Source: Minisyncoccia bacterium
Lineage (GTDB): Bacteria > Patescibacteriota > Minisyncoccia > SW-4-49-11
Reading direction: 5' to 3'
Assembly: GCA_044356725.1 (NCBI GenBank)
Contig: JBIKVS010000001.1
Span: 36,873-100,872, forward strand
DNA: 64,000 nucleotides
The position numbers were made by a program, and so were the translations under genes. Shown here one piece after another: positions 12,760-63,903 of the stretch. A model generated the notes under the pieces. That model was not told the origin of the DNA and ran no database searches. It saw nothing but the letters and a program-made list of their open reading frames with translations. Within the stretch, counting starts at the first letter, position 1, and every line of letters begins with the position of its first letter.

Positions 12760-15759
12760 TTATAATACTTTTAACCCCAATACTCTTTCTAATTCTGCAA
12801 AATCAGTGGTATGGTCTAATACCTTTAGAATACCAGAAACTTCTAGAGTTGTCATCCCTTCCTCAATAGCTAGGCTCTTGATATTAGCAGTTGAGGCCTT
12901 AGATATAATGATCTCTTTGATTTTAGGTGTCAGTACCAATACCTCGAATATAGCAGTGATGCCATTATATCCATTTGGATGCTCTGGGCTAGAATTAGAC
13001 TCGAGAATTGTATCAGGTATTATGCTATGATATCTCTCTGGTAATTTAGATTTGATTATATCTTTCTGTTCATCAGAAAGTTTAACAGAGGTTGCATTAG
13101 TGGGGTCTATTTTTCTTACAATTCTTTGAGCAATAGTCACATTTACAAAAGTAGCTATCTCAGATAATCCAACTCCTAAGTCATATAATCTTAAAATAGC
13201 CGAAGCCGCATCATTGGTATGTAGGGTTGATAATAGTAAATGTCCAGTAGCTGCTGTCTGCATCGCTACCTTAGCAGTCTCTCCATCTCTTATCTCGCCA
13301 ATTAAGACAATATTAGGGTTTTGTCTTAATAAAGCTCGAATAGCATTAGGAAAACTATACCCAGTCTCTTCATTGATACTGGTCTGTAAAATTCCAGATA
13401 ATTTGTATTCAATTGGATCTTCTATAGTGATAATTTTGACTCCAGGTTGATTGAGGGTATTAAGAGTCGCATAAAGAGTAGTAGACTTACCTGCACTAGT
13501 AGGTCCAGTTACCAAAATGAGTCCAGTAGTTGCCTGTAATTGTTCCTGCAAAAGATTAATATTATACTCATCCATCCCAAGATCTTGTAATTTGAGCTTA
13601 GCAATGTCCGATCGTAATATTCTCAGCACAATAGTTTGCCCATAACCTCCAGGGATAATCGACACTCTAACATCAAAGTTTTTATCCGCAAAAATAGTAA
13701 ATCTACCTTCTTGAATTTTATTTGCAATATCTAAAGGTAGCCCAGAAAAAATTTTAATTTGAGTTAAAATTTGAGGATAAAGTGACTTCGGAACACGAGC
13801 TTCTTCATATAATACTCCATCAATTCTAAATCTAATTATAAGATCAGACATATCTGGCTCGAGATGAATGTCCGTAGCTCTTTTAATCAATGCAGTGTTA
13901 GTAATAGCTGTTAATTGGTCATTGATAGACATAGATTCAGATATATGTGCAATTTCGGGTAGAAAATCACCAGATTGCTTGATATGAATTCCTCGAGATA
14001 AGGCAGAAGTCAAAGTAGCCTCATAAATTTCATCTATATAGGATATATCTCCCGCTACAGATAAAACTTCTTCAAGAGAAGTCTCTCCATTTACTGCATG
14101 CAATACTCCGTCTTGAAACAGAGTCACCATACCATTTTCAACAGCTTTTCTAAATATTTTAAACTCTGGTATATTATTGACAATTAAGTCTTTGATATTA
14201 TCTCTAGTTTCGAATAATTCATATAGAGCAAATCTACCTTTATATCCAAGTCCATAACATTTAGCACAGCCTTTAGGTCGATATAATCTGTTAATTTCTT
14301 GGGGAATGGTTAAATTAGATTTAGGTGAAATTATAGCCAAAGCTTTTTTAATGAGATCCAACTCCTTTTCTTCTGGAATATATTCTTCTTTACAATCACA
14401 AAGTTTTCTTACTAGTCTTTGAGCCACAAAAAGATTCATCGCTGAGATTATTAGCTGAGGGCTAGAACCAAATTCTTTTAGTCTAGTTACTATACCAACA
14501 GAATCATTAGTATGAATAGTAGAGAATACTAAATGTCCGGTAATGGCAGCGTTTACAGATATACTAGCAGTCTCATTATCTCGAATTTCTCCAACCATAA
14601 TCACATCAGGATCTTGTCTTACAATCGCCTTTAATCCGTTAGCAAAAGTGTATCCTTTTTTAGTGTCTACTTGAGTCTGATTTATATTTTGCAACCTATA
14701 TTCAATAGGGTCTTCAATAGTAATAATATTAGTCTCAGAGCGATTTACATAATTCAAAAAAGAATAAAGACTAGTAGTTTTACCCGAACCAGTTGGACCA
14801 GATAACATAATCATTCCTTGAGGTTTGTCTAGATTCCTTACAATAATATCCAAAAAAGCCTCTCTAATGCCAAAACTATAAATATCCAAATTATGAATCT
14901 CTGTATTAAGTAATCTCATCACAATAATTTCCCCGGTCTTACTAGGCAGAATTGATACCCTTACATCAATAGATTGTTTTATATTCCCATTATTTTCTTT
15001 GATAACAATACTAAATCTACCATCTTGAGCAGTAGTTTTAATATTCAAAACAAGAGAAGCTAAATTTTTGATCCTTGAAATGAGTAATTTATACATTTCA
15101 TTATCAAAATTCAAAATATCTTGCAAAACTCCATCTATACGATATCTAAGACGTGTAATATCTCCTTTTGGCTCAATATGTATATCACTAGCAAAAGCTG
15201 TTATAGCCCCAGCACAAATTATTTGAATCAATTCAGAGGTATCCATAGCATCAATTTTGCGAGCGAAATCTTCCAAAGACACAATACCTTCTTTGAATTC
15301 TTGTAACATTGTAATTGGCACTATTAACCTATCCTTCACCACTTCACTTCTTTCCTGTAGAAAGTCATAAGCTGCATAACCTTTTTCTAAACTATATTTT
15401 GATATTATATATAAATCTAATTCATAATTACTTTGATAGAGTTTTTGCAATATAGTTTTAGCGATTGGATTGTCTAAATCTTTTAGAGCCACTTTAAGAT
15501 TTAGTCCAGATCTTTGAAAAATTATCATTTGGGCTTTTTTAGACTGTTCCTTAGTTAGTATTTTTAAAGCGTCTTGGTTTATTGGAATAAATTGCAGGTT
15601 TAAATAAGCCATACCAAGACTATCTGCCAATTTTTGAGTGTTACTCTCTTCTTCTTTTTTACGAATAGTAGATAAATTCATATCTATCGCATTATTAGAA
15701 TGCAATTTGTCTCGAAAGCTTGGACGATAAGATTTTTTTTGTTTTAATATTGAACTCAT
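12760..15759 (-). CDS. PilB/GspE-family ATPase with two tandem ATPase modules
   Basis: ASDIHIEP/GPTGSGKTT/EDPIEY/RQDPD/GHLVFSTIH, then ATDIHLEP/GPTSAGKST/EDPIEY/RQNPN/GHLLLSTLH. Confidence 0.92.
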   Translation of the reverse strand: MSSILKQKKSYRPSFRDKLHSNNAIDMNLSTIRKKEEESNTQKLADSLGMAYLNLQFIPINQDALKILTKEQSKKAQMIIFQRSGLNLKVALKDLDNPIAKTILQKLYQSNYELDLYIISKYSLEKGYAAYDFLQERSEVVKDRLIVPITMLQEFKEGIVSLEDFARKIDAMDTSELIQIICAGAITAFASDIHIEPKGDITRLRYRIDGVLQDILNFDNEMYKLLISRIKNLASLVLNIKTTAQDGRFSIVIKENNGNIKQSIDVRVSILPSKTGEIIVMRLLNTEIHNLDIYSFGIREAFLDIIVRNLDKPQGMIMLSGPTGSGKTTSLYSFLNYVNRSETNIITIEDPIEYRLQNINQTQVDTKKGYTFANGLKAIVRQDPDVIMVGEIRDNETASISVNAAITGHLVFSTIHTNDSVGIVTRLKEFGSSPQLIISAMNLFVAQRLVRKLCDCKEEYIPEEKELDLIKKALAIISPKSNLTIPQEINRLYRPKGCAKCYGLGYKGRFALYELFETRDNIKDLIVNNIPEFKIFRKAVENGMVTLFQDGVLHAVNGETSLEEVLSVAGDISYIDEIYEATLTSALSRGIHIKQSGDFLPEIAHISESMSINDQLTAITNTALIKRATDIHLEPDMSDLIIRFRIDGVLYEEARVPKSLYPQILTQIKIFSGLPLDIANKIQEGRFTIFADKNFDVRVSIIPGGYGQTIVLRILRSDIAKLKLQDLGMDEYNINLLQEQLQATTGLILVTGPTSAGKSTTLYATLNTLNQPGVKIITIEDPIEYKLSGILQTSINEETGYSFPNAIRALLRQNPNIVLIGEIRDGETAKVAMQTAATGHLLLSTLHTNDAASAILRLYDLGVGLSEIATFVNVTIAQRIVRKIDPTNATSVKLSDEQKDIIKSKLPERYHSIIPDTILESNSSPEHPNGYNGITAIFEVLVLTPKIKEIIISKASTANIKSLAIEEGMTTLEVSGILKVLDHTTDFAELERVLGLKVL

Positions 15760-15920
15760 AATATGTAGTGTATATTATATATTATATCATAAAATACTAA
15801 AAACAGCAAATGCATTTTTAAGATTTCCTTATCCCACACATAAATTTGTCAAAAAAAGTAGAATATAGCATAATATATTAGTTGTATAAAGTAAAAATAA
15901 TAAATATGAATGGCTCAAAT

Positions 15921-17300
15921 ATGAAAAAACAGAGTAAAGGTTTTACACTCCTAGAAATACTTTTAACTATAATGCTAATTGGGATATTAGCAACAATAGT
16001 ACTTGTAGCAATAAATCCTAATAAACAGATCTCACAATCAAGAAATCTTGTTAGAAAGGCAGATATAAATAGTATATATAATGCTTTGCAGCAATACAAC
16101 GCTGTTAATAGAGGGGTTTCAAATTTCAATATATCCAATAATTATACTGAGATATGTGATACAGGAAGTCTTACTACAGAAGATAGTCTGCCAAGTACAA
16201 ACTATTGTGATGGTAAAATTGACTTAAGAGCATTAGTTCCTACGTATTTAATTGAAATTCCAAAAGATACTGATACTTCATTAGGTGGTACCGGATATGA
16301 ACTAGCAAAGGATTCTAATAATCAGACTAGCTTAAGGTCTAATAAAGAAGAGCTGTCTCAGATTGTAGCAATAAATCCACTGCCAACCCCCGAAGAATTA
16401 ATTCAAGCTCAGATAGCGGCAGGGACATTAATACCAACAGGGACACAACAATTAGTCTTAGATAGATTAGTATATAAGAACAATGCAGGAACTCAGACAT
16501 ATATAGATAAGTCCACAACTACAAGAACCTGTCCAGCTAATTATATTCCAGTCCCAGGGAATAGTATGTATGGAACTAGTGACTTTTGTGTAATGAAGTA
16601 CGAAGCTAAAACAGGGTCCGCCACAGTTTCAGCCACAACACAAACAGCAGGAAACCCACAAGTAAATATAACTCAACCAAATGCCATCACAGCCTGTAGT
16701 TTAAACGGAGCAGGATATGGACTAATCAATAATAATGAATGGATGACCATAGCCAGGAATATAGAAGGACAAGGAGTCAACTGGACAGGAGGAGCAGTAG
16801 GCAGTGGAGGTTTATGGCGAGGACATAGTGATGGAAGTCCAAATAATGTATTAGCAGCAAGTACAGATGACAATGATCCATACTTTGGAACAGGAAACAC
16901 CAGTCCAAGCATAGAGAGAAGAACCCATACCTTAAGTAATGGAGGAGTAATCTGGGACTTAAGTGGGAATGTCTGGGAATTTACCAATAATACCATATTA
17001 GGAAAAGACCAACCAACAGGAACTACTCCAGGATTTAATTGGAGACAATATACAGCAATAACTAATTATGGAACTTTAAGTTATGACCTAACCCACCCAA
17101 GTAATACTAGATGGAACAGTAGTCAGAATATGGGACAAATATACAGTGATGGAACAAGTACTAACAATACAACTTTCGCCTTCATCCGCGGTGGTGATTG
17201 GGATGGTGCTGATACTACTGCAGGAGTATTTACTCTTCGCCTTCATCTTACTCCCGCCTCTACGTTTACTAGTATTGGCTTCCGCTGCGTTCTGCGCTGA
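15921..17300 (+). CDS. type IV pilin fused to FGE-sulfatase/C-type lectin domain; candidate DGR target
   Basis: KG/FTLLE prepilin site; FCVMKYEA, WDLSGNVWE, RGGDW, IGFRC; alternative ATG at 15906. Confidence 0.88.
   Translation: MKKQSKGFTLLEILLTIMLIGILATIVLVAINPNKQISQSRNLVRKADINSIYNALQQYNAVNRGVSNFNISNNYTEICDTGSLTTEDSLPSTNYCDGKIDLRALVPTYLIEIPKDTDTSLGGTGYELAKDSNNQTSLRSNKEELSQIVAINPLPTPEELIQAQIAAGTLIPTGTQQLVLDRLVYKNNAGTQTYIDKSTTTRTCPANYIPVPGNSMYGTSDFCVMKYEAKTGSATVSATTQTAGNPQVNITQPNAITACSLNGAGYGLINNNEWMTIARNIEGQGVNWTGGAVGSGGLWRGHSDGSPNNVLAASTDDNDPYFGTGNTSPSIERRTHTLSNGGVIWDLSGNVWEFTNNTILGKDQPTGTTPGFNWRQYTAITNYGTLSYDLTHPSNTRWNSSQNMGQIYSDGTSTNNTTFAFIRGGDWDGADTTAGVFTLRLHLTPASTFTSIGFRCVLR
17175..17300 (+). 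other. putative DGR variable region (VR)
   Basis: Abrupt A depletion (17 A in 17176-17300); NNT/NNC codons between RGG and IGFRC. Confidence 0.65.
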
Positions 17301-17306
17301 GGGGCA

Positions 17307-17347
17307 ACTGGCTCCTCTGCCTAAGTTAGACAACTCTGGGAGCCAGT
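17307..17347. other. GC-rich hairpin 6 nt after the pilin stop codon
   Basis: ACTGGCTCC ... GGAGCCAGT 9-bp stem; loop contains a 19-nt insert-like sequence. Confidence 0.7.
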
Positions 17348-17365
17348 GAGCTCAGTAATTCGTCA

Positions 17366-17428
17366 TTCGTAGAGTCGGCGCCCCCGCCGACATTTACATT
17401 TCGTAGGGGCGACCTGCCAGTCGCCTGC
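17366..17428 (+). repeat. REP cluster 2 (class A and class B in tandem)
   Basis: TCGTAGAGTCGGCGCCCCCGCCGACAT and TCGTAGGGGCGACCTGCCAGTCGCCTG. Confidence 0.88.
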
Positions 17429-17505
17429 ACTTCTTACCACACCTACCCAAATTAGAACAGAACTACAATTTATATTTTTCTAAATCTATGGTATAATAAT
17501 TTTAT

Positions 17506-18576
17506 ATGAGATATATCAAAGATTATAAAAACCTATTAAAGGGTAAGCGAGTTTTAGTTAGAATTGATGTCAATGAACCTGTAGACGCACAGGGTTATCC
17601 TCAAGATACTTTTCGTATACAAAGATCTCTAGAGACTATTAATTTCCTAAGAGAGGCGGGGGCTAAGATTGTTCTGATAGCTCACTTAGGAGATCCACAA
17701 GAAAAAGGGCGAGAAAGTTTGTCTTTAGAGCCAATTTCTAAAGTACTGGGAGAACTTGGTGAATTTGGGGTTAAGTTTATGTCTGAGAATGTTGATAGCA
17801 TAGATATGAATATAGTCAATAATTTGGCAAATGGAGAGGTTGTCCTTTTAGAAAATCTTAGATTTGATTCTAGAGAAGAAGAGAATAGTCTTGAATTTGC
17901 TCAAAAACTAGCTCAATTTGGGGATTTATATGTGAGTGATGCTTTTTCAGTGATGCATCGTCAACATAGCTCAGTAGTAGCTATTACAGAGATTTTGCCA
18001 TCCTTTGGTGGGATAGTTTTGGAACAGGAGTTAGATGCTTTGAATCATATATTAGATAATCCAGCTAAGCCAGCAGTAGCTATTATTGGTGGGGCAAAAA
18101 TAGCTACTAAATTACCAGTTATCCAGACTTTAGAGTCAATTTTTGATTATATTCTTGTTGGAGGTAAAATTGCTAATGAATATATTGATGAATATGGTGT
18201 AGCTCAAAGTGAGAAAATTCTTTTGCCTGTAGATTTTGTTGAGACAGAGCGTTATGATATTGGACCTAAAACTATAGAACTATTTGCTGATTATATCTCT
18301 CAAGCCTCGACTGTTATTTGGAACGGCCCAATGGGTTGGTTTGAGAAAAAACCTTATGATGAAGGTACAAGATATATAGCTCAATCTATTGCTAAAAATG
18401 AATCTAGTTACTCAGTTATAGGTGGCGGGGAGACTGTAGATGAGGTTCATAATTTACATCAAGAGTCTAAAATAGATTTTATTTCTACTGGTGGTGGAGC
18501 TATGTTAGAATATATAGCAACTCGAGGGCAGTTGCCTGGTGTTATTGCTTTGCAAAATAATATATTAGAAATATGA
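17506..18576 (+). CDS. pgk: phosphoglycerate kinase
   Basis: RIDVNEP, AHLG, LLENLRF, GGAK, WNGPMG, STGGGA. Confidence 0.96.
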   Translation: MRYIKDYKNLLKGKRVLVRIDVNEPVDAQGYPQDTFRIQRSLETINFLREAGAKIVLIAHLGDPQEKGRESLSLEPISKVLGELGEFGVKFMSENVDSIDMNIVNNLANGEVVLLENLRFDSREEENSLEFAQKLAQFGDLYVSDAFSVMHRQHSSVVAITEILPSFGGIVLEQELDALNHILDNPAKPAVAIIGGAKIATKLPVIQTLESIFDYILVGGKIANEYIDEYGVAQSEKILLPVDFVETERYDIGPKTIELFADYISQASTVIWNGPMGWFEKKPYDEGTRYIAQSIAKNESSYSVIGGGETVDEVHNLHQESKIDFISTGGGAMLEYIATRGQLPGVIALQNNILEI

Positions 18577-44947: not shown

Positions 44948-44983
44948 TTTATAAATTGCAGGGCTTTAAGTAAGAGATATTGT

Positions 44984-45205
44984 GTAGGAGCGACCTTTCA
45001 GTTGCCTGCATTTTTCCTTTGGTGGAGGGAGTGCTGAGCTAAATTCCCCTCTCTGCCTACGGTAGATAAATTGAGGGGTGGACAGCTATGCTGGACGGGG
45101 TGGATTATTTTGCAACTTGAGCTAAATTCTCCCTTAGAAAGAGAAACATAAGTGCTGAGAAAACAGCACAGGCGACTGGCAGCCCCTACGAAACTCCCAA
45201 CTCCC
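44984..45205. repeat. REP cluster 3
   Basis: Inverted class B REPs (44984-45008 +, 45169-45192 -) enclose a TGAGCTAAATTCCCCTC...GGGGTGG element (45035-45103) and a partial copy at 45118. Confidence 0.85.
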
Positions 45206-52385: not shown

Positions 52386-53873
52386 ATGACTAAAATAAAA
52401 CAAAACAAAGGCTTCACCCTCTTAGAAATACTTCTAGTAATAGCAGCGATAGGGATATTAGCAGCAATAGTACTAGTAGCAATAAACCCAAATAGACAGA
52501 TAGCATTAGGAAATAATGCAAGGAGGAGTAGTGACGTAGGAACTATATATAAAGCAATACAGCAATATAACATAGATAATCAGAGATATCCAGAAGCAAT
52601 AGAGAATATGCAGACAGGATACGATAATAGGAAAGAAATATGTAGGGTAGGAGAATATGGAATAAACTGTATAGATATAGATGGAGATATAGTACCAATA
52701 TATATAGCAAGTATACCAGAAGATCCAAATAGTACTACAGTAATAAGTACAAGATATAGTATAGTAAAAAACCTAAATAATACCATAGCAGTCAGAGCAG
52801 AAGGAGCTGAATTAGGAAGAGAGATAATAGCAGGAGTTATATTAGATGGAGGAGGTACATTGAATGCACCATCTGCTATAACAGATTTAAGTATACAGGT
52901 AATAGATGGTATTAGTGTAAGTTTAACTTGGAGTGCTCCAAATAGTCCATTGCCAATAGAAGAGTATGTTATTATATATAGTAGTGGACAAGGATTTAGT
53001 AGTCAAACAGTCATTGGGGAAGTATTAAGCACAAGTTATTTGGTAGAAAATCTACCAATAGGTATTTATGAATTTAAAGTAGTAGCAGTAAATGCAGAAG
53101 CCCAAGGACCAGACTCTAATATAGTAGAAGGAGTCTTATGTGGAGCAGGGACTTGTATAGATTATGCAGGAGCTGATTGGATAATAAGTAGTAATCAAAA
53201 TATATCAGGTCTACATTATAATGTAGGAATATTTAGAGTAAATACAGGAATTATGGCAAGTACGGTATTAGGAGAGAGATTTGTAGTACATGCAAATCAG
53301 TATCAGGGATTAGGAAATATAGATGCAAGTGGAAGAGGTTACCGAGGGGGGCGAGATGGGCATAGTGGAAATAATGGACTAGGCATAGGAGGTGGAACAC
53401 AACAATATGCAGGAGGAGGCTATGGAGGAGCCGGAGGAGGAAGTGGAGGAGGGATTGGATATGGAAGTATAGAGCAACCAATAGAATTAGGAAGTGGAGG
53501 AGGATCAGGCTATTATACAAATACCTTAGGAGGCCGAGGAGGCGGAGCGATCAAGATAGTAGTAAGTGGGGATATAGAGGTAGGAGGTAATATATTGGCA
53601 AATGGAGGAAATGGTGCTAGTGGAGGTTTTTACAGTGGAGGCGGAGGAGGAGCTGGAGGAAGTGTATGGTTAGAAGCAGGAGGAGAGATGAGAGGTGCGG
53701 GAGAGATAAGAGTAAATGGAGGAAATGGAGTCGGTGGATCGGCAGGCGGAGCCGGAGGGCGAATAGCAATGTATTATGGAAGTAATAGTTTTAGTGGAAC
53801 AGTAACAACAAATGGAGGTAATGTAACATCAGGTTCCGGAGGAGCTGGTACTATATTTCAACAACAGAGATAA
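52386..53873 (+). CDS. type IV pilin with FN3 domain and glycine-rich C-terminal domain
   Basis: KG/FTLLE; LTWSAP...YEFKVVAVN (FN3); GSGGG/GGRGGG/GGAGG repeats. Confidence 0.85.
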   Translation: MTKIKQNKGFTLLEILLVIAAIGILAAIVLVAINPNRQIALGNNARRSSDVGTIYKAIQQYNIDNQRYPEAIENMQTGYDNRKEICRVGEYGINCIDIDGDIVPIYIASIPEDPNSTTVISTRYSIVKNLNNTIAVRAEGAELGREIIAGVILDGGGTLNAPSAITDLSIQVIDGISVSLTWSAPNSPLPIEEYVIIYSSGQGFSSQTVIGEVLSTSYLVENLPIGIYEFKVVAVNAEAQGPDSNIVEGVLCGAGTCIDYAGADWIISSNQNISGLHYNVGIFRVNTGIMASTVLGERFVVHANQYQGLGNIDASGRGYRGGRDGHSGNNGLGIGGGTQQYAGGGYGGAGGGSGGGIGYGSIEQPIELGSGGGSGYYTNTLGGRGGGAIKIVVSGDIEVGGNILANGGNGASGGFYSGGGGGAGGSVWLEAGGEMRGAGEIRVNGGNGVGGSAGGAGGRIAMYYGSNSFSGTVTTNGGNVTSGSGGAGTIFQQQR

Positions 53874-63650: not shown

Positions 63651-63903
63651 TCGTAGCGGAGCCGTCCCTACTGGAGGTAAACGTTTATCCCTCCACCAAG
63701 TACAGGCGACCTTTTAGTCGCTTGTAATTTTTCTTCGTCTGAGTGAGAACTGAGCTAAATTCCCCTCTTGAGGGGTGGACAGCTTTGCTGGACGGGGTGG
63801 AAAAATTATTAATTATGAATTGTAGTAGCGCCCTTTCAGTCGCCCGTATTTATATAAACTGTTTCAGGCGACTGGAAGGTCGCCCCTACGAAATTCCCAA
63901 CTC
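63651..63903. repeat. REP cluster 4
   Basis: Class C REP with insert at 63651; class B-like copies at 63701, ~63822 and 63865-63891 (-); element 63751-63800 nearly identical to 45035-45103. Confidence 0.85.

What the first reader, a model, noticed from the sequence alone, without database searches (positions are those of the whole stretch)
15921..17347. Type IV pilin-C-type-lectin fusion with a DGR-like variable region but no local RT or template: candidate remotely diversified pilus adhesin
Seen: prepilin N-terminus, FGE/CLec domain, and C-terminus RGGDWDGADTTAGVFTLRLHLTPASTFTSIGFRC. At ~17175 the gene switches from A-rich (26 A of 60 in 16981-17040) to A-poor (17 of 125). The non-scaffold codons are almost all NNT/NNC (gat, gat, ggt, gct, gat, act, act, act, cgc, cat, ctt, act, tct, ttt, act, agt). 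A 9-bp GC hairpin follows the stop. Known: DGRs mutate template adenines so AAY codons become NNY in a C-terminal CLec VR, often with a downstream hairpin; DGRs are common in CPR and can act on remote targets. Inference: a hypervariable binding tip displayed on the pilus, plausibly for host attachment. Predicted template translates roughly as RGGNWNN...AGVFNLNLNN.P...NNIGFRC.
Basis: partly seen in the sequence, partly recalled or inferred. Interest (0 to 1): 0.85.

Follow-up and report, generated by a model that had tools for sequence, protein, structure and literature searches.

The report
Orphan retroelement-written pilin adhesin tip
A pilus-type surface protein of a tiny lake bacterium ends in a lectin-like tip that carries the signature of rewriting by a diversity-generating retroelement, but the retroelement is not found in this genome, so the tip looks recently written and now frozen.

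Summary
Window 15921-17300 (+) encodes a 459-aa prepilin fused to an FGE/C-type-lectin domain. Its last 41 codons (17175-17297) have 16 A in 123 nt, against 39% A upstream. They rank 2nd of 681 long ORFs in the genome for A-poverty; a paralog on contig C18 ranks 1st.

The DGR reading of the variable region (VR) is strongly supported. A same-genus genome (G005) carries a full cassette: target, Avd, template repeat (TR), RT. Its TR is homologous to this VR and starts at the same codon. The window VR differs from that TR at 20 of 33 TR adenines but at 12 of 87 other bases. G005 also has a full-length prepilin-lectin target on another contig, so remote targets occur in this genus.

In this 897-kb, 99%-complete genome I found no RT, Avd or TR. 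Both loci syntenic to the relatives' cassettes are contiguous without one. Contigs from three lake-metagenome runs carry the identical VR. The C5 and C18 VRs cannot come from one TR.

Best reading: a recently orphaned DGR target, now static (about 0.55). Main rival: an active target whose cassette escaped assembly (about 0.3). New member of a known kind.

The parts
15846..15874 (+). Promoter-like site (TTGTCA, 17-nt spacer, CATAAT) upstream of the gene
   Evidence: Consensus scan, 10 of 12 matches. This is a pattern match only.
15921..17300 (+). Gene for a 459-aa prepilin-CLec fusion protein (modular type IV pilin-like adhesin)
   Evidence: ORF. Pfam N_methyl plus FGE-sulfatase. NCBIfam prepilin models. 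AF2 model with pLDDT 90.5. At least 1442 homologs at E<=1e-10, many named prepilin-type proteins and carrying PF07963+PF03781.
15921..16010 (+). Class III (prepilin) signal: leader MKKQSKG, then F+1, E+5 and a hydrophobic alpha-1 helix
   Evidence: PF07963 matches residues 3-28 and TIGR02532 residues 6-28. Weak phmmer matches to solved pilins, E 0.003-0.03. Helices at residues 10-30 and 33-62 in the model.
16617..17291 (+). FGE-sulfatase / C-type-lectin-fold domain
   Evidence: PF03781 matches residues 233-457. The best Foldseek hits of the model are DGR variable proteins TaqVP 5vf4 (E 2e-10) and Mtd 1yu0-1yu4, then FGEs and TvpA 2y3c.
17175..17297 (+). Variable region (VR): 41 codons, A-depleted, 35 of 41 codons NNY
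   Evidence: Aligns to the G005 TR over its whole length with one extra codon. Mismatches fall at 20 of 33 TR adenines and 12 of 87 other bases.
17277..17308 (+). IMH-like 3' end of the VR, running through the stop codon into GGGGCAAC
   Evidence: TGAGGGGCAAC is identical in all three VRs of G005 and in G002_C10. The G005 TR has TGAGTGGCTTT at the same place. The function is inferred.
17307..17347 (+). Inverted repeat: 9-bp stem (17307-17315 with 17339-17347) and a 23-nt loop, lying between the stop codon and the terminator-like site
   Evidence: DNA fold. Homologous to the 9-bp stem with 4-nt loop behind the remote VRs of G005 and G002 (z -3.9), with one compensatory G:C to C:G change. The C18 paralog keeps it. 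No T-run follows it.
17365..17434 (+). Copy of a dispersed GC-rich double-hairpin repeat; its first hairpin (17374-17391) is terminator-like
   Evidence: About 40 further matches across the genome. Fold z -3.6. Terminator-like scan hit. No Rfam match. Probably not part of the DGR signature.
12760..15759 (-). Divergently transcribed 999-aa ATPase with two T2SSE (PilB/GspE-type) domains; the likely pilus assembly motor
   Evidence: PF00437, E 5e-209, 2 stretches. A functional link to the pilin is inferred from adjacency only.

Best explanation
The gene encodes a modular type IV pilin. It has a prepilin signal and a pilin domain, which would let the cell's pilus machinery process it and build it into a pilus, most likely as a minor or tip subunit given its 459 aa. 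A C-type-lectin-fold domain follows, and its last 41 codons form the ligand-binding surface.

That 41-codon segment was written by mutagenic retrohoming of a diversity-generating retroelement (DGR). In that process a template repeat (TR) with AAY codons is transcribed and reverse-transcribed with random bases opposite adenines. The cDNA then replaces the VR, guided by the IMH-like end (GGGGCAAC) and the hairpin just behind the stop codon.

Shown: the fold, the prepilin signal, the A-depleted codon pattern, homology to a real TR in a congener with adenine-biased mismatches, and the conserved 3' elements.

Inferred: display on the pilus, adhesion to a host or partner cell, and the function of the 3' elements.

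In this genome the RT-Avd-TR cassette is absent. I therefore read the VR as a recently orphaned target whose present allele is frozen.
For: DGR origin
- The G005 cassette lies on contig C33: VR, then a 127-aa Avd (NF033474, E 4.5e-16), then the TR, then a 338-aa RT with YMDD.
- G005's own three VRs differ from its TR at 21/33, 21/33 and 24/33 adenines, and at 1/87, 7/87 and 6/87 other bases.
- The window VR differs at 20/33 and 12/87, Fisher p 8e-7. The 5' boundary of homology corresponds to 17175.
- Scaffold residues use A-free codons (CGC, GGT, GGC, TGC). A paralog without the signature, C9b, uses AGA and GGA for the same residues.
- The model's top structural matches are DGR variable proteins.

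Orphan state
- No PF00078 hit in the genome.
- No tblastn hit of the G005 RT or Avd better than E 0.14.
- No NF033474 hit.
- No TR by an ungapped scan at 50% identity or more, or by blastn with the G005 TR.
- G000 C14 (prfB-orf84-orf93) and C1, syntenic to the cassette flanks of G005 and of metagenome contig L059, run on without a cassette.
- Contigs of runs X4, X5 and X6 span the VR with 0 differences.
- The C5 and C18 VRs differ by a 3-nt indel and at 11 of 87 non-adenine sites.
- Metagenome contig L060 shows such a cassette decaying. A prepilin-CLec gene's VR is fused to the TR-type flank, Avd is gone and the RT is split into 3 ORFs.
- In the genus, CLec homologs occur in 9 of 11 other genomes, but a DGR RT and Avd occur in 1 of 11.

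Pilus machinery
- A prepilin peptidase, two PilC-type platform genes and a T2SSE ATPase are present.
Against: - The VR is compositionally as fresh as VRs in the genome that has the cassette: A 0.13 and third-position A 0.07, against 0.07-0.10 and 0.00-0.05 in G005. Decayed paralogs show third-position A of 0.2-0.34. Any loss must therefore be recent.
- Eleven such fresh VRs sit in four RT-less genomes (G000 2, G009 7, G001 1, G002 1; ad-hoc criterion chosen after seeing the table). That would need several independent recent losses, or it points to cassettes that assemblies miss.
- The genome is a 20-contig assembly, and paralogous pilin genes break contigs.
- The run data were contigs at depth about 5-7. 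These cannot show rare variants, and X4 may be the source sample.
- The IMH-like end and the hairpin are still intact.
Confidence: 0.55

Rival explanations
1. Active remote target. The organism still has an RT-Avd-TR cassette with a TR matching this VR, but the cassette lies on a short or strain-variable contig that was not assembled or binned. The pilin tip is still rewritten from time to time.
For: - The VR is as A-poor as bona fide VRs of G005.
- The IMH-like TGAGGGGCAAC is identical to that of G005's VRs, and the hairpin is kept with a compensatory change.
- Remote targets exist in G005 on other contigs.
- Fresh VRs occur in four RT-less assemblies.
- The cassette sits in three different genomic contexts in G005, L059 and L060, so it moves or is rearranged.
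- Pilin paralogs break assemblies: all 8 CLec genes of G009 lie at contig ends, and C18 and C6 in G000 do so too.
Against: - No trace of RT, Avd or TR at any contig end or elsewhere in a 99.26%-complete assembly.
- The VR is identical in contigs of three runs.
- C5 and C18 would need two different TRs.
- No relative of the G005 RT above 46% identity in IMG/VR, and only two above 44% among the 80 best metagenome loci.
- A 20-mer from the VR's 3' end has no relevant match in the GTDB representatives and none in IMG/VR.
Confidence: 0.3
2. Not a DGR product. The A-poor, NNY-rich end and the variable positions arise from recombination or gene conversion among the many pilin-CLec paralogs (pilS-like antigenic variation), or from ordinary diversifying selection plus a local compositional quirk.
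For: - The genome has four CLec paralogs and several more pilin genes. Upstream and downstream flanks are conserved and could support recombination.
- In G009, upstream sequence type and VR scaffold type are uncoupled.
- No RT is present.
Against: - The variable positions coincide with the adenines of a real TR in a congener, with an odds ratio of 9.6.
- The A-poor block starts exactly at the TR/VR homology boundary.
- Scaffold codons avoid A even at synonymous sites, in a genome whose genes have 43-54% A at third positions.
- Recombination alone does not predict adenine specificity.
Confidence: 0.05

Closest known systems
DGR variable proteins with a C-terminal CLec-fold VR (Thermus aquaticus TaqVP 5vf4, Bordetella phage Mtd 1yu0, Treponema denticola TvpA 2y3c)
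   Same: These are the best structural matches of the model. The VR lies in the last ~40 residues of an FGE-like/CLec fold, ends in a GFRC-type motif, uses NNY variable codons and has A-free scaffold codons.
   Different: The N-terminus here is a prepilin signal plus pilin domain rather than a phage fibre, a lipoprotein or a stand-alone protein. No cognate TR or RT is in the genome. Sequence identity to the solved proteins is only 12-16%.
The complete DGR of the congeneric genome G005 (contig C33), and metagenome contig L059 (RT 93% identical)
   Same: Same protein family and the same VR frame. The TR is homologous over the whole VR. The 11-nt IMH-like end is identical, the 3' hairpin is homologous, and G005 has prepilin-CLec targets on other contigs.
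   Different: The window VR has one extra codon and 12 of 87 non-adenine differences, so the G005 TR did not write it. This genome lacks Avd, TR and RT.
Modular type IV pilins that carry an extra adhesive module (Streptococcus sanguinis PilB/PilC, ETEC CofB; recalled, not checked in any call)
   Same: A pilin module followed by a globular binding module. Here a paralog (C9c) shares the pilin module at 69% identity over 175 aa but carries a different C-terminal module.
   Different: To my recollection those pilins are not diversified by retroelements.
DGR-diversified adhesive tips of Bacteroides type V pili (bioRxiv 10.1101/2024.11.15.621889; only the search listing and the start of the abstract were seen)
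   Same: A DGR varies the adhesive component of a pilus.
   Different: That is a different pilus class (type V rather than type IV) in a different phylum, with cassettes present.
DGR target domains listed in surveys (BMC Genomics 2024, PMC11661182; passages seen)
   Same: [quoted passage not shown] It reports that Patescibacteria DGR RTs cluster together and come mostly from aquatic samples.
   Different: The passages I saw do not describe a pilin-CLec paralog family or cassette-less VRs. The supplementary tables could not be opened.

Membership tests
DGR target gene / variable region | VR at the C-terminal end of a CLec-fold (FGE-like) domain | tested here: met
   PF03781 matches residues 233-457. 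AF2 model pLDDT 90.5. Foldseek top hits are TaqVP, Mtd, FGE and TvpA.
DGR target gene / variable region | A cognate TR in the same genome that differs from the VR essentially only at TR adenines | tested here: not met
   No TR in G000. Against the heterologous TR of congener G005, mismatches are adenine-biased (20/33 against 12/87, p 8e-7), with one codon indel.
DGR target gene / variable region | A DGR-clade reverse transcriptase in the same genome | tested here: not met
   PF00078 gives 0 matches in G000. tblastn with the G005 RT gives a best E of 0.14.
DGR target gene / variable region | An accessory protein (Avd) | tested here: not met
   NF033474 matches 1 of 12 genus genomes, G005 only. 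tblastn of the G005 Avd against G000 gives a best E of 3.4.
DGR target gene / variable region | An IMH at the VR's 3' end and a GC-rich hairpin just downstream | tested here: met
   TGAGGGGCAAC is shared with all three G005 VRs, while the TR has TGAGTGGCTTT. The 9-bp stem 17307-17315/17339-17347 is homologous to the 9-bp stem with 4-nt loop of the G005/G002 VRs and shows one compensatory change. This rests on sequence and fold prediction only.
DGR target gene / variable region | A-free codons for invariant scaffold residues and NNY codons at variable positions | tested here: met
   35 of 41 codons are NNY. Third-position A is 0.07 against 0.43 upstream. The gene ranks 2nd of 681 ORFs.
DGR target gene / variable region | VR heterogeneity within or between populations (ongoing activity) | tested here: inconclusive
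   Contigs of X4, X5 and X6 span the VR with 0 differences. X9 gave no listed piece over the VR. Contigs cannot show rare variants, and no raw reads were available.
Type IV pilin (prepilin) | A class III signal: short basic leader ending in G, then F+1, E+5 and a hydrophobic helix | tested here: met
   The sequence reads MKKQSKG/FTLLEILL. PF07963 E 4e-6 and TIGR02532 E 1.4e-5, both above their cut-offs.
Type IV pilin (prepilin) | A prepilin peptidase and an assembly platform and ATPase in the genome | tested here: met
   PF01478 on C8, PF00482 on C8 and C9, and a T2SSE ATPase adjacent in the window.
Type IV pilin (prepilin) | Incorporation into a pilus fibre | not testable with these tools
   Needs microscopy or biochemistry.
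Formylglycine-generating enzyme (catalytic FGE) | The catalytic cysteine pair and copper site | not tested
   Only fold-level and Pfam-level similarity was examined. I considered this family only as the source of the fold.

The most novel reading that the evidence does not exclude
In this genus the pilin tips may be served by a hit-and-run DGR. The cassette would not be a fixed chromosomal gene. It would be strain-variable or mobile, seen here in three different contexts (G005, L059, L060), and would visit lineages, rewrite several prepilin-lectin paralogs in trans through their shared IMH and hairpin, and then be lost again. This would explain why 11 compositionally fresh VRs sit in four cassette-less genomes (7 of them in G009, with two scaffold types), while only 1 of 12 genus genomes holds an RT and Avd.
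Probability: 0.2. Interest if true: 0.75.

Novelty: new member of a known kind. Interest (0 to 1): 0.45.

Why it matters
Candidate-phyla-radiation bacteria are thought to live attached to other cells, and how they recognise partners is largely unknown. This locus links two known features of these organisms, type IV pili and DGRs. The lectin-like tip of a pilin-type protein bears a DGR signature, and a congener shows the full machinery acting on such pilins, including one on a different contig.

The locus also gives a usable picture of how DGR targets are born and die: fresh VRs, half-decayed VRs and a decaying cassette all occur within one genus. It shows too that a VR can be recognised from its codon signature alone when the cassette is absent. 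RT-anchored DGR surveys would not find such a target. Roux et al. [quoted passage not shown]

Tried and rejected
Searches for a template or cassette that found nothing
- Direct repeats in the window.
- A DNA search of the own genome with 17100-17460. It found only the paralog on C18 and about 40 copies of an unrelated dispersed repeat.
- An ungapped scan of the genome at 50% identity or more. It found only C18 and C9a.
- blastn with the G005 TR at word size 7.
- PF00078 and NF033474.
- tblastn with the G005 RT and Avd.
- A motif scan of all contig ends for YMDD/YADD, FRC and NVWEW.

The C18 match is not a TR. I first considered it as a candidate template. It is the 3' end of a paralogous gene, and its differences from the window VR are not adenine-specific.

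The cassette on a phage. 80 IMG/VR loci related to the G005 RT reach at most 46% identity. This gives no support.

The cognate TR elsewhere. A 20-mer of the VR's 3' end gave 4 hits in the GTDB representatives, all in unrelated high-GC MAGs (Gaiellaceae, Myxococcales, Vicinamibacterales, Eremiobacterota), and 0 hits in IMG/VR.

The RT of G003. It turned out to be a group II intron-type RT cut by an IS256-like transposase, not a DGR RT.

Rfam on 17250-17520. No match.

Pilin-type ORFs next to related RTs. 1 of 172 loci had one (12 class-level, 80 metagenome and 80 viral loci). Flanks were short, so this is a weak negative.

Run X9. No listed contig piece covers the VR at identity. The output says 97 pieces and 136 differences are not shown, so nothing is concluded from X9.

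Rows dropped. G009_C12 was left out of the VR table because my pattern cut it wrongly. Homologs whose C-terminus my pattern did not catch (G010_C3, G001_C26, G014_C56 and G014_C107) are not in the table. G008_C1 was looked at separately.

Papers
- Read as passages only: PMC11661182, PMC8144416, PMC5758913, PMC10221324, PMC9938205 and PMC6642488.
- Seen only in search listings: the others.
- Paul et al. 2017 (PMC5436926) is not held and may already describe pilin-type CPR targets.
- Supplementary tables were not opened.
- My statement that no description of this family was found rests on searches only.
Full report
THE OBSERVATION

Window 15921-17300 (+) is an open frame of 459 aa. Its N-terminus, MKKQSKG followed by FTLLEILL and a hydrophobic helix, matches the prepilin methylation motif: PF07963 at E 4e-6 and TIGR02532 at E 1.4e-5, both above their cut-offs. 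Residues 233-457 match PF03781, FGE-sulfatase, just above its cut-off.

There are 26 A of 60 in 16981-17040 and 16 A of 125 in 17175-17299. In the last 41 codons, 35 are NNY, against 194 of 418 upstream. Third-position A falls from 0.43 to 0.07.

This is far beyond chance. Only 0.043% of all 123-nt windows of the genome have 16 A or fewer. Among 681 ORFs of at least 150 aa, this gene and a paralog rank 2nd and 1st for an A-poor 3' end.

A 9-bp inverted repeat (17307-17315 with 17339-17347) follows the stop codon. No T-run follows it. The terminator-like hairpin comes later, at 17374-17391.

THE GENOME

The window lies in an 897-kb, 20-contig assembly with 33% G+C and 99.26% estimated completeness. 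Sources name homologous proteins 'Minisyncoccia bacterium', a class within the candidate phyla radiation. Logan contigs of 24 lake or freshwater metagenome runs hold the stretch or a part of it.

The genome encodes a prepilin peptidase and two PilC-type platform proteins. A 999-aa ATPase with two T2SSE domains is transcribed divergently from the gene.

IS THERE A TEMPLATE OR AN RT HERE?

No. Eight separate tests found none:
- repeats in the window;
- a DNA search of the genome;
- an ungapped scan at 50% identity or more;
- PF00078;
- NF033474, the Avd model;
- tblastn with a congener's RT and Avd;
- blastn with that congener's TR;
- a motif scan of the contig ends.

The one good DNA match, on contig C18, is the 3' end of a paralogous pilin-CLec gene and not a template.

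The genome has four CLec paralogs. C5 (this gene) and C18 have A fractions of 0.13 and 0.12 in the last 41 codons. C9a is half-decayed at 0.21 (third-position A 0.25). C9b has ordinary codon usage, at 0.25 with AGA and GGA scaffold codons.

THE DECISIVE COMPARISON

Among 60 relatives, a same-genus genome, G005, holds a textbook DGR on contig C33. In order it has the end of a CLec gene, a 127-aa Avd (NF033474, E 4.5e-16), a 130-nt repeat, and a 338-aa RT with YMDD.

The repeat is a template repeat (TR). It translates to FAFLRGGNWNNTTNAGVFTLNLNNTPTNTNNNIGFRCVLR. It differs from the adjacent VR at 21 of 33 adenines and at 1 of 87 other bases.

Two further G005 genes on other contigs differ from it at 21/33 and 24/33 adenines and at 7/87 and 6/87 other bases. 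Most of the non-adenine differences lie in the last 20 nt, the IMH region. One of these genes (C27) is a full-length prepilin-CLec protein. So in this genus a DGR acts on prepilin-lectin genes, including remote ones.

The window VR aligns to the G005 TR over its whole length, and homology starts at the codon at 17175. It differs at 20 of 33 TR adenines but at 12 of 87 other bases (odds ratio 9.6, p 8e-7), and it has one extra codon. A related but different TR therefore wrote it, presumably one belonging to this species' own lineage.

Its 3' end, TGAGGGGCAAC, is identical to that of all three G005 VRs. The TR has TGAGTGGCTTT at the same place. The hairpin is homologous to the 9-bp stem with 4-nt loop behind the remote VRs of G005 and G002, with one compensatory G:C to C:G change.

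The AF2 model (pLDDT 90.5, pTM 0.80) matches DGR variable proteins best: TaqVP at E 2e-10 and then Mtd. FGEs and TvpA follow.

ACTIVE OR ORPHANED?

For orphaned:
- No cassette is present in the assembly.
- The loci syntenic to the cassette flanks of G005 (prfB-orf84-orf93, on G000 C14) and of metagenome contig L059 (on G000 C1) are contiguous without a cassette.
- Contigs of runs X4 (1563 nt), X5 (1207 nt) and X6 (1055 nt) run through the VR with no difference. A 30-nt stretch of the C18 VR is also identical in X4. X4 may be the source sample, and contigs hide rare variants.
- C5 and C18 differ by an indel and at 11 of 87 non-adenine sites, so one TR cannot serve both.
- Metagenome contig L060 (RT 81% identical) shows a cassette decaying. 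A prepilin-CLec gene's VR is joined directly to the TR-type flank, Avd is missing and the RT is in three pieces.
- In the genus, 9 of 11 other genomes have CLec homologs. Only G005 has a DGR RT and Avd. The RT hit in G003 is a group II intron-type RT cut by a transposase.
- In the 6-contig genome G008, the single homolog has a decayed end, with third-position A of 0.21.

For active, with the cassette missed:
- The VR is as A-poor as the G005 VRs, and its 3' elements are intact.
- I applied a criterion chosen after seeing the table: third-position A at most 0.10, and at most 12 of 87 non-adenine mismatches. By this criterion 14 of 36 VR-like ends are fresh, and 11 of them lie in cassette-less genomes (G000 2, G009 7, G001 1, G002 1).
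- VR scaffold sites are more conserved between species (82-95%) than the 178 nt upstream (54-85%). The non-coding 3' flank of C5 and C18 is 83% identical, against 69% for the upstream coding part.
- The cassette sits in three different contexts in G005, L059 and L060.
- Pilin paralogs break these assemblies.

No close relative of the RT is in IMG/VR, where the best is 46% identical.

I put the orphan reading at about 0.55, an unassembled active cassette at about 0.3, and a non-DGR origin at about 0.05.

COMPARISON WITH WHAT IS KNOWN

This is a DGR-type VR in a CLec fold. That is a known kind, and the membership rows say which defining features are met and which (TR, RT, Avd in the same genome) are not.

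Passages I read show four things:
- Patescibacteria DGR RTs form their own, mostly aquatic, clade (PMC8144416 and PMC11661182).
- RT-anchored surveys do not detect remote targets (PMC8144416).
- A 'G-type pilin' domain is among the scarce VR-holding domains (PMC11661182).
- Most CPR targets were uncharacterised in 2017 (PMC5758913).

I found no description of a prepilin-FGE paralog family with cassette-less VRs in three searches.

I file this as a new member of a known kind. It is of moderate interest, mainly as a clear case of a pilus-displayed DGR target and of DGR birth and death in one genus.

Noticed in passing
window 17365-17434; also 44983-45104 and 63699-63851, and about 40 further places in the genome: A dispersed GC-rich element of about 65 nt with two hairpins, in a 33% G+C genome. 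The first hairpin scores as terminator-like. There is no Rfam match. Copies also sit exactly where relatives carry the DGR cassette (G000 C14:25588-25650 and C1:9203-9251), which may only reflect that the element marks most intergenic regions.
   Followed up: partly
L060 (metagenome contig) 667-2962: A decaying DGR. A 388-aa prepilin-CLec gene's VR runs straight into the TR-type 3' flank. Avd is absent and the RT is split into ORFs of 119, 69 and 80 aa. This looks like a VR/TR recombination that deleted Avd.
   Followed up: partly
G009 (same genus), 8 CLec genes, e.g. L041, L043, L046, L049, L050, L056, L025, L037: All eight CLec genes lie at contig ends. Seven have fresh A-poor VRs of two different scaffold types, and the scaffold type does not follow the upstream gene sequence. 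No RT or Avd is in this 99%-complete assembly.
   Followed up: partly
window 12760-15759 (-): A 999-aa protein with two complete T2SSE (PilB/GspE) ATPase domains in tandem, transcribed divergently from the pilin gene.
   Followed up: no
G000 C9:40735-42613 (outside the window): Two tandem pilin genes. C9c shares the pilin module of the window gene (69% over 175 aa) but carries a different, repeat-rich C-terminal module. C9b is a pilin-CLec without the A-poor signature. The pilin module therefore seems to be combined with different tips.
   Followed up: no
window 52397-52501 and 53331-53681: Another pilin-like gene whose first 105 nt are 78% identical to those of this gene, followed by glycine-rich GGA/GGT repeats.
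   Followed up: no
L014 (G003 contig C26) 19-2193: A group II intron-type RT (230-aa open frame) abutted by a 425-aa IS256-like transposase gene. It is unrelated to the DGR.
   Followed up: no
G000 C6:1-330 and C18:61300-61503: The start of contig C6 holds a copy of the 5' end of the C18 pilin-CLec gene and then diverges into unrelated sequence. This is an assembly fork or a truncated pilin copy.
   Followed up: no
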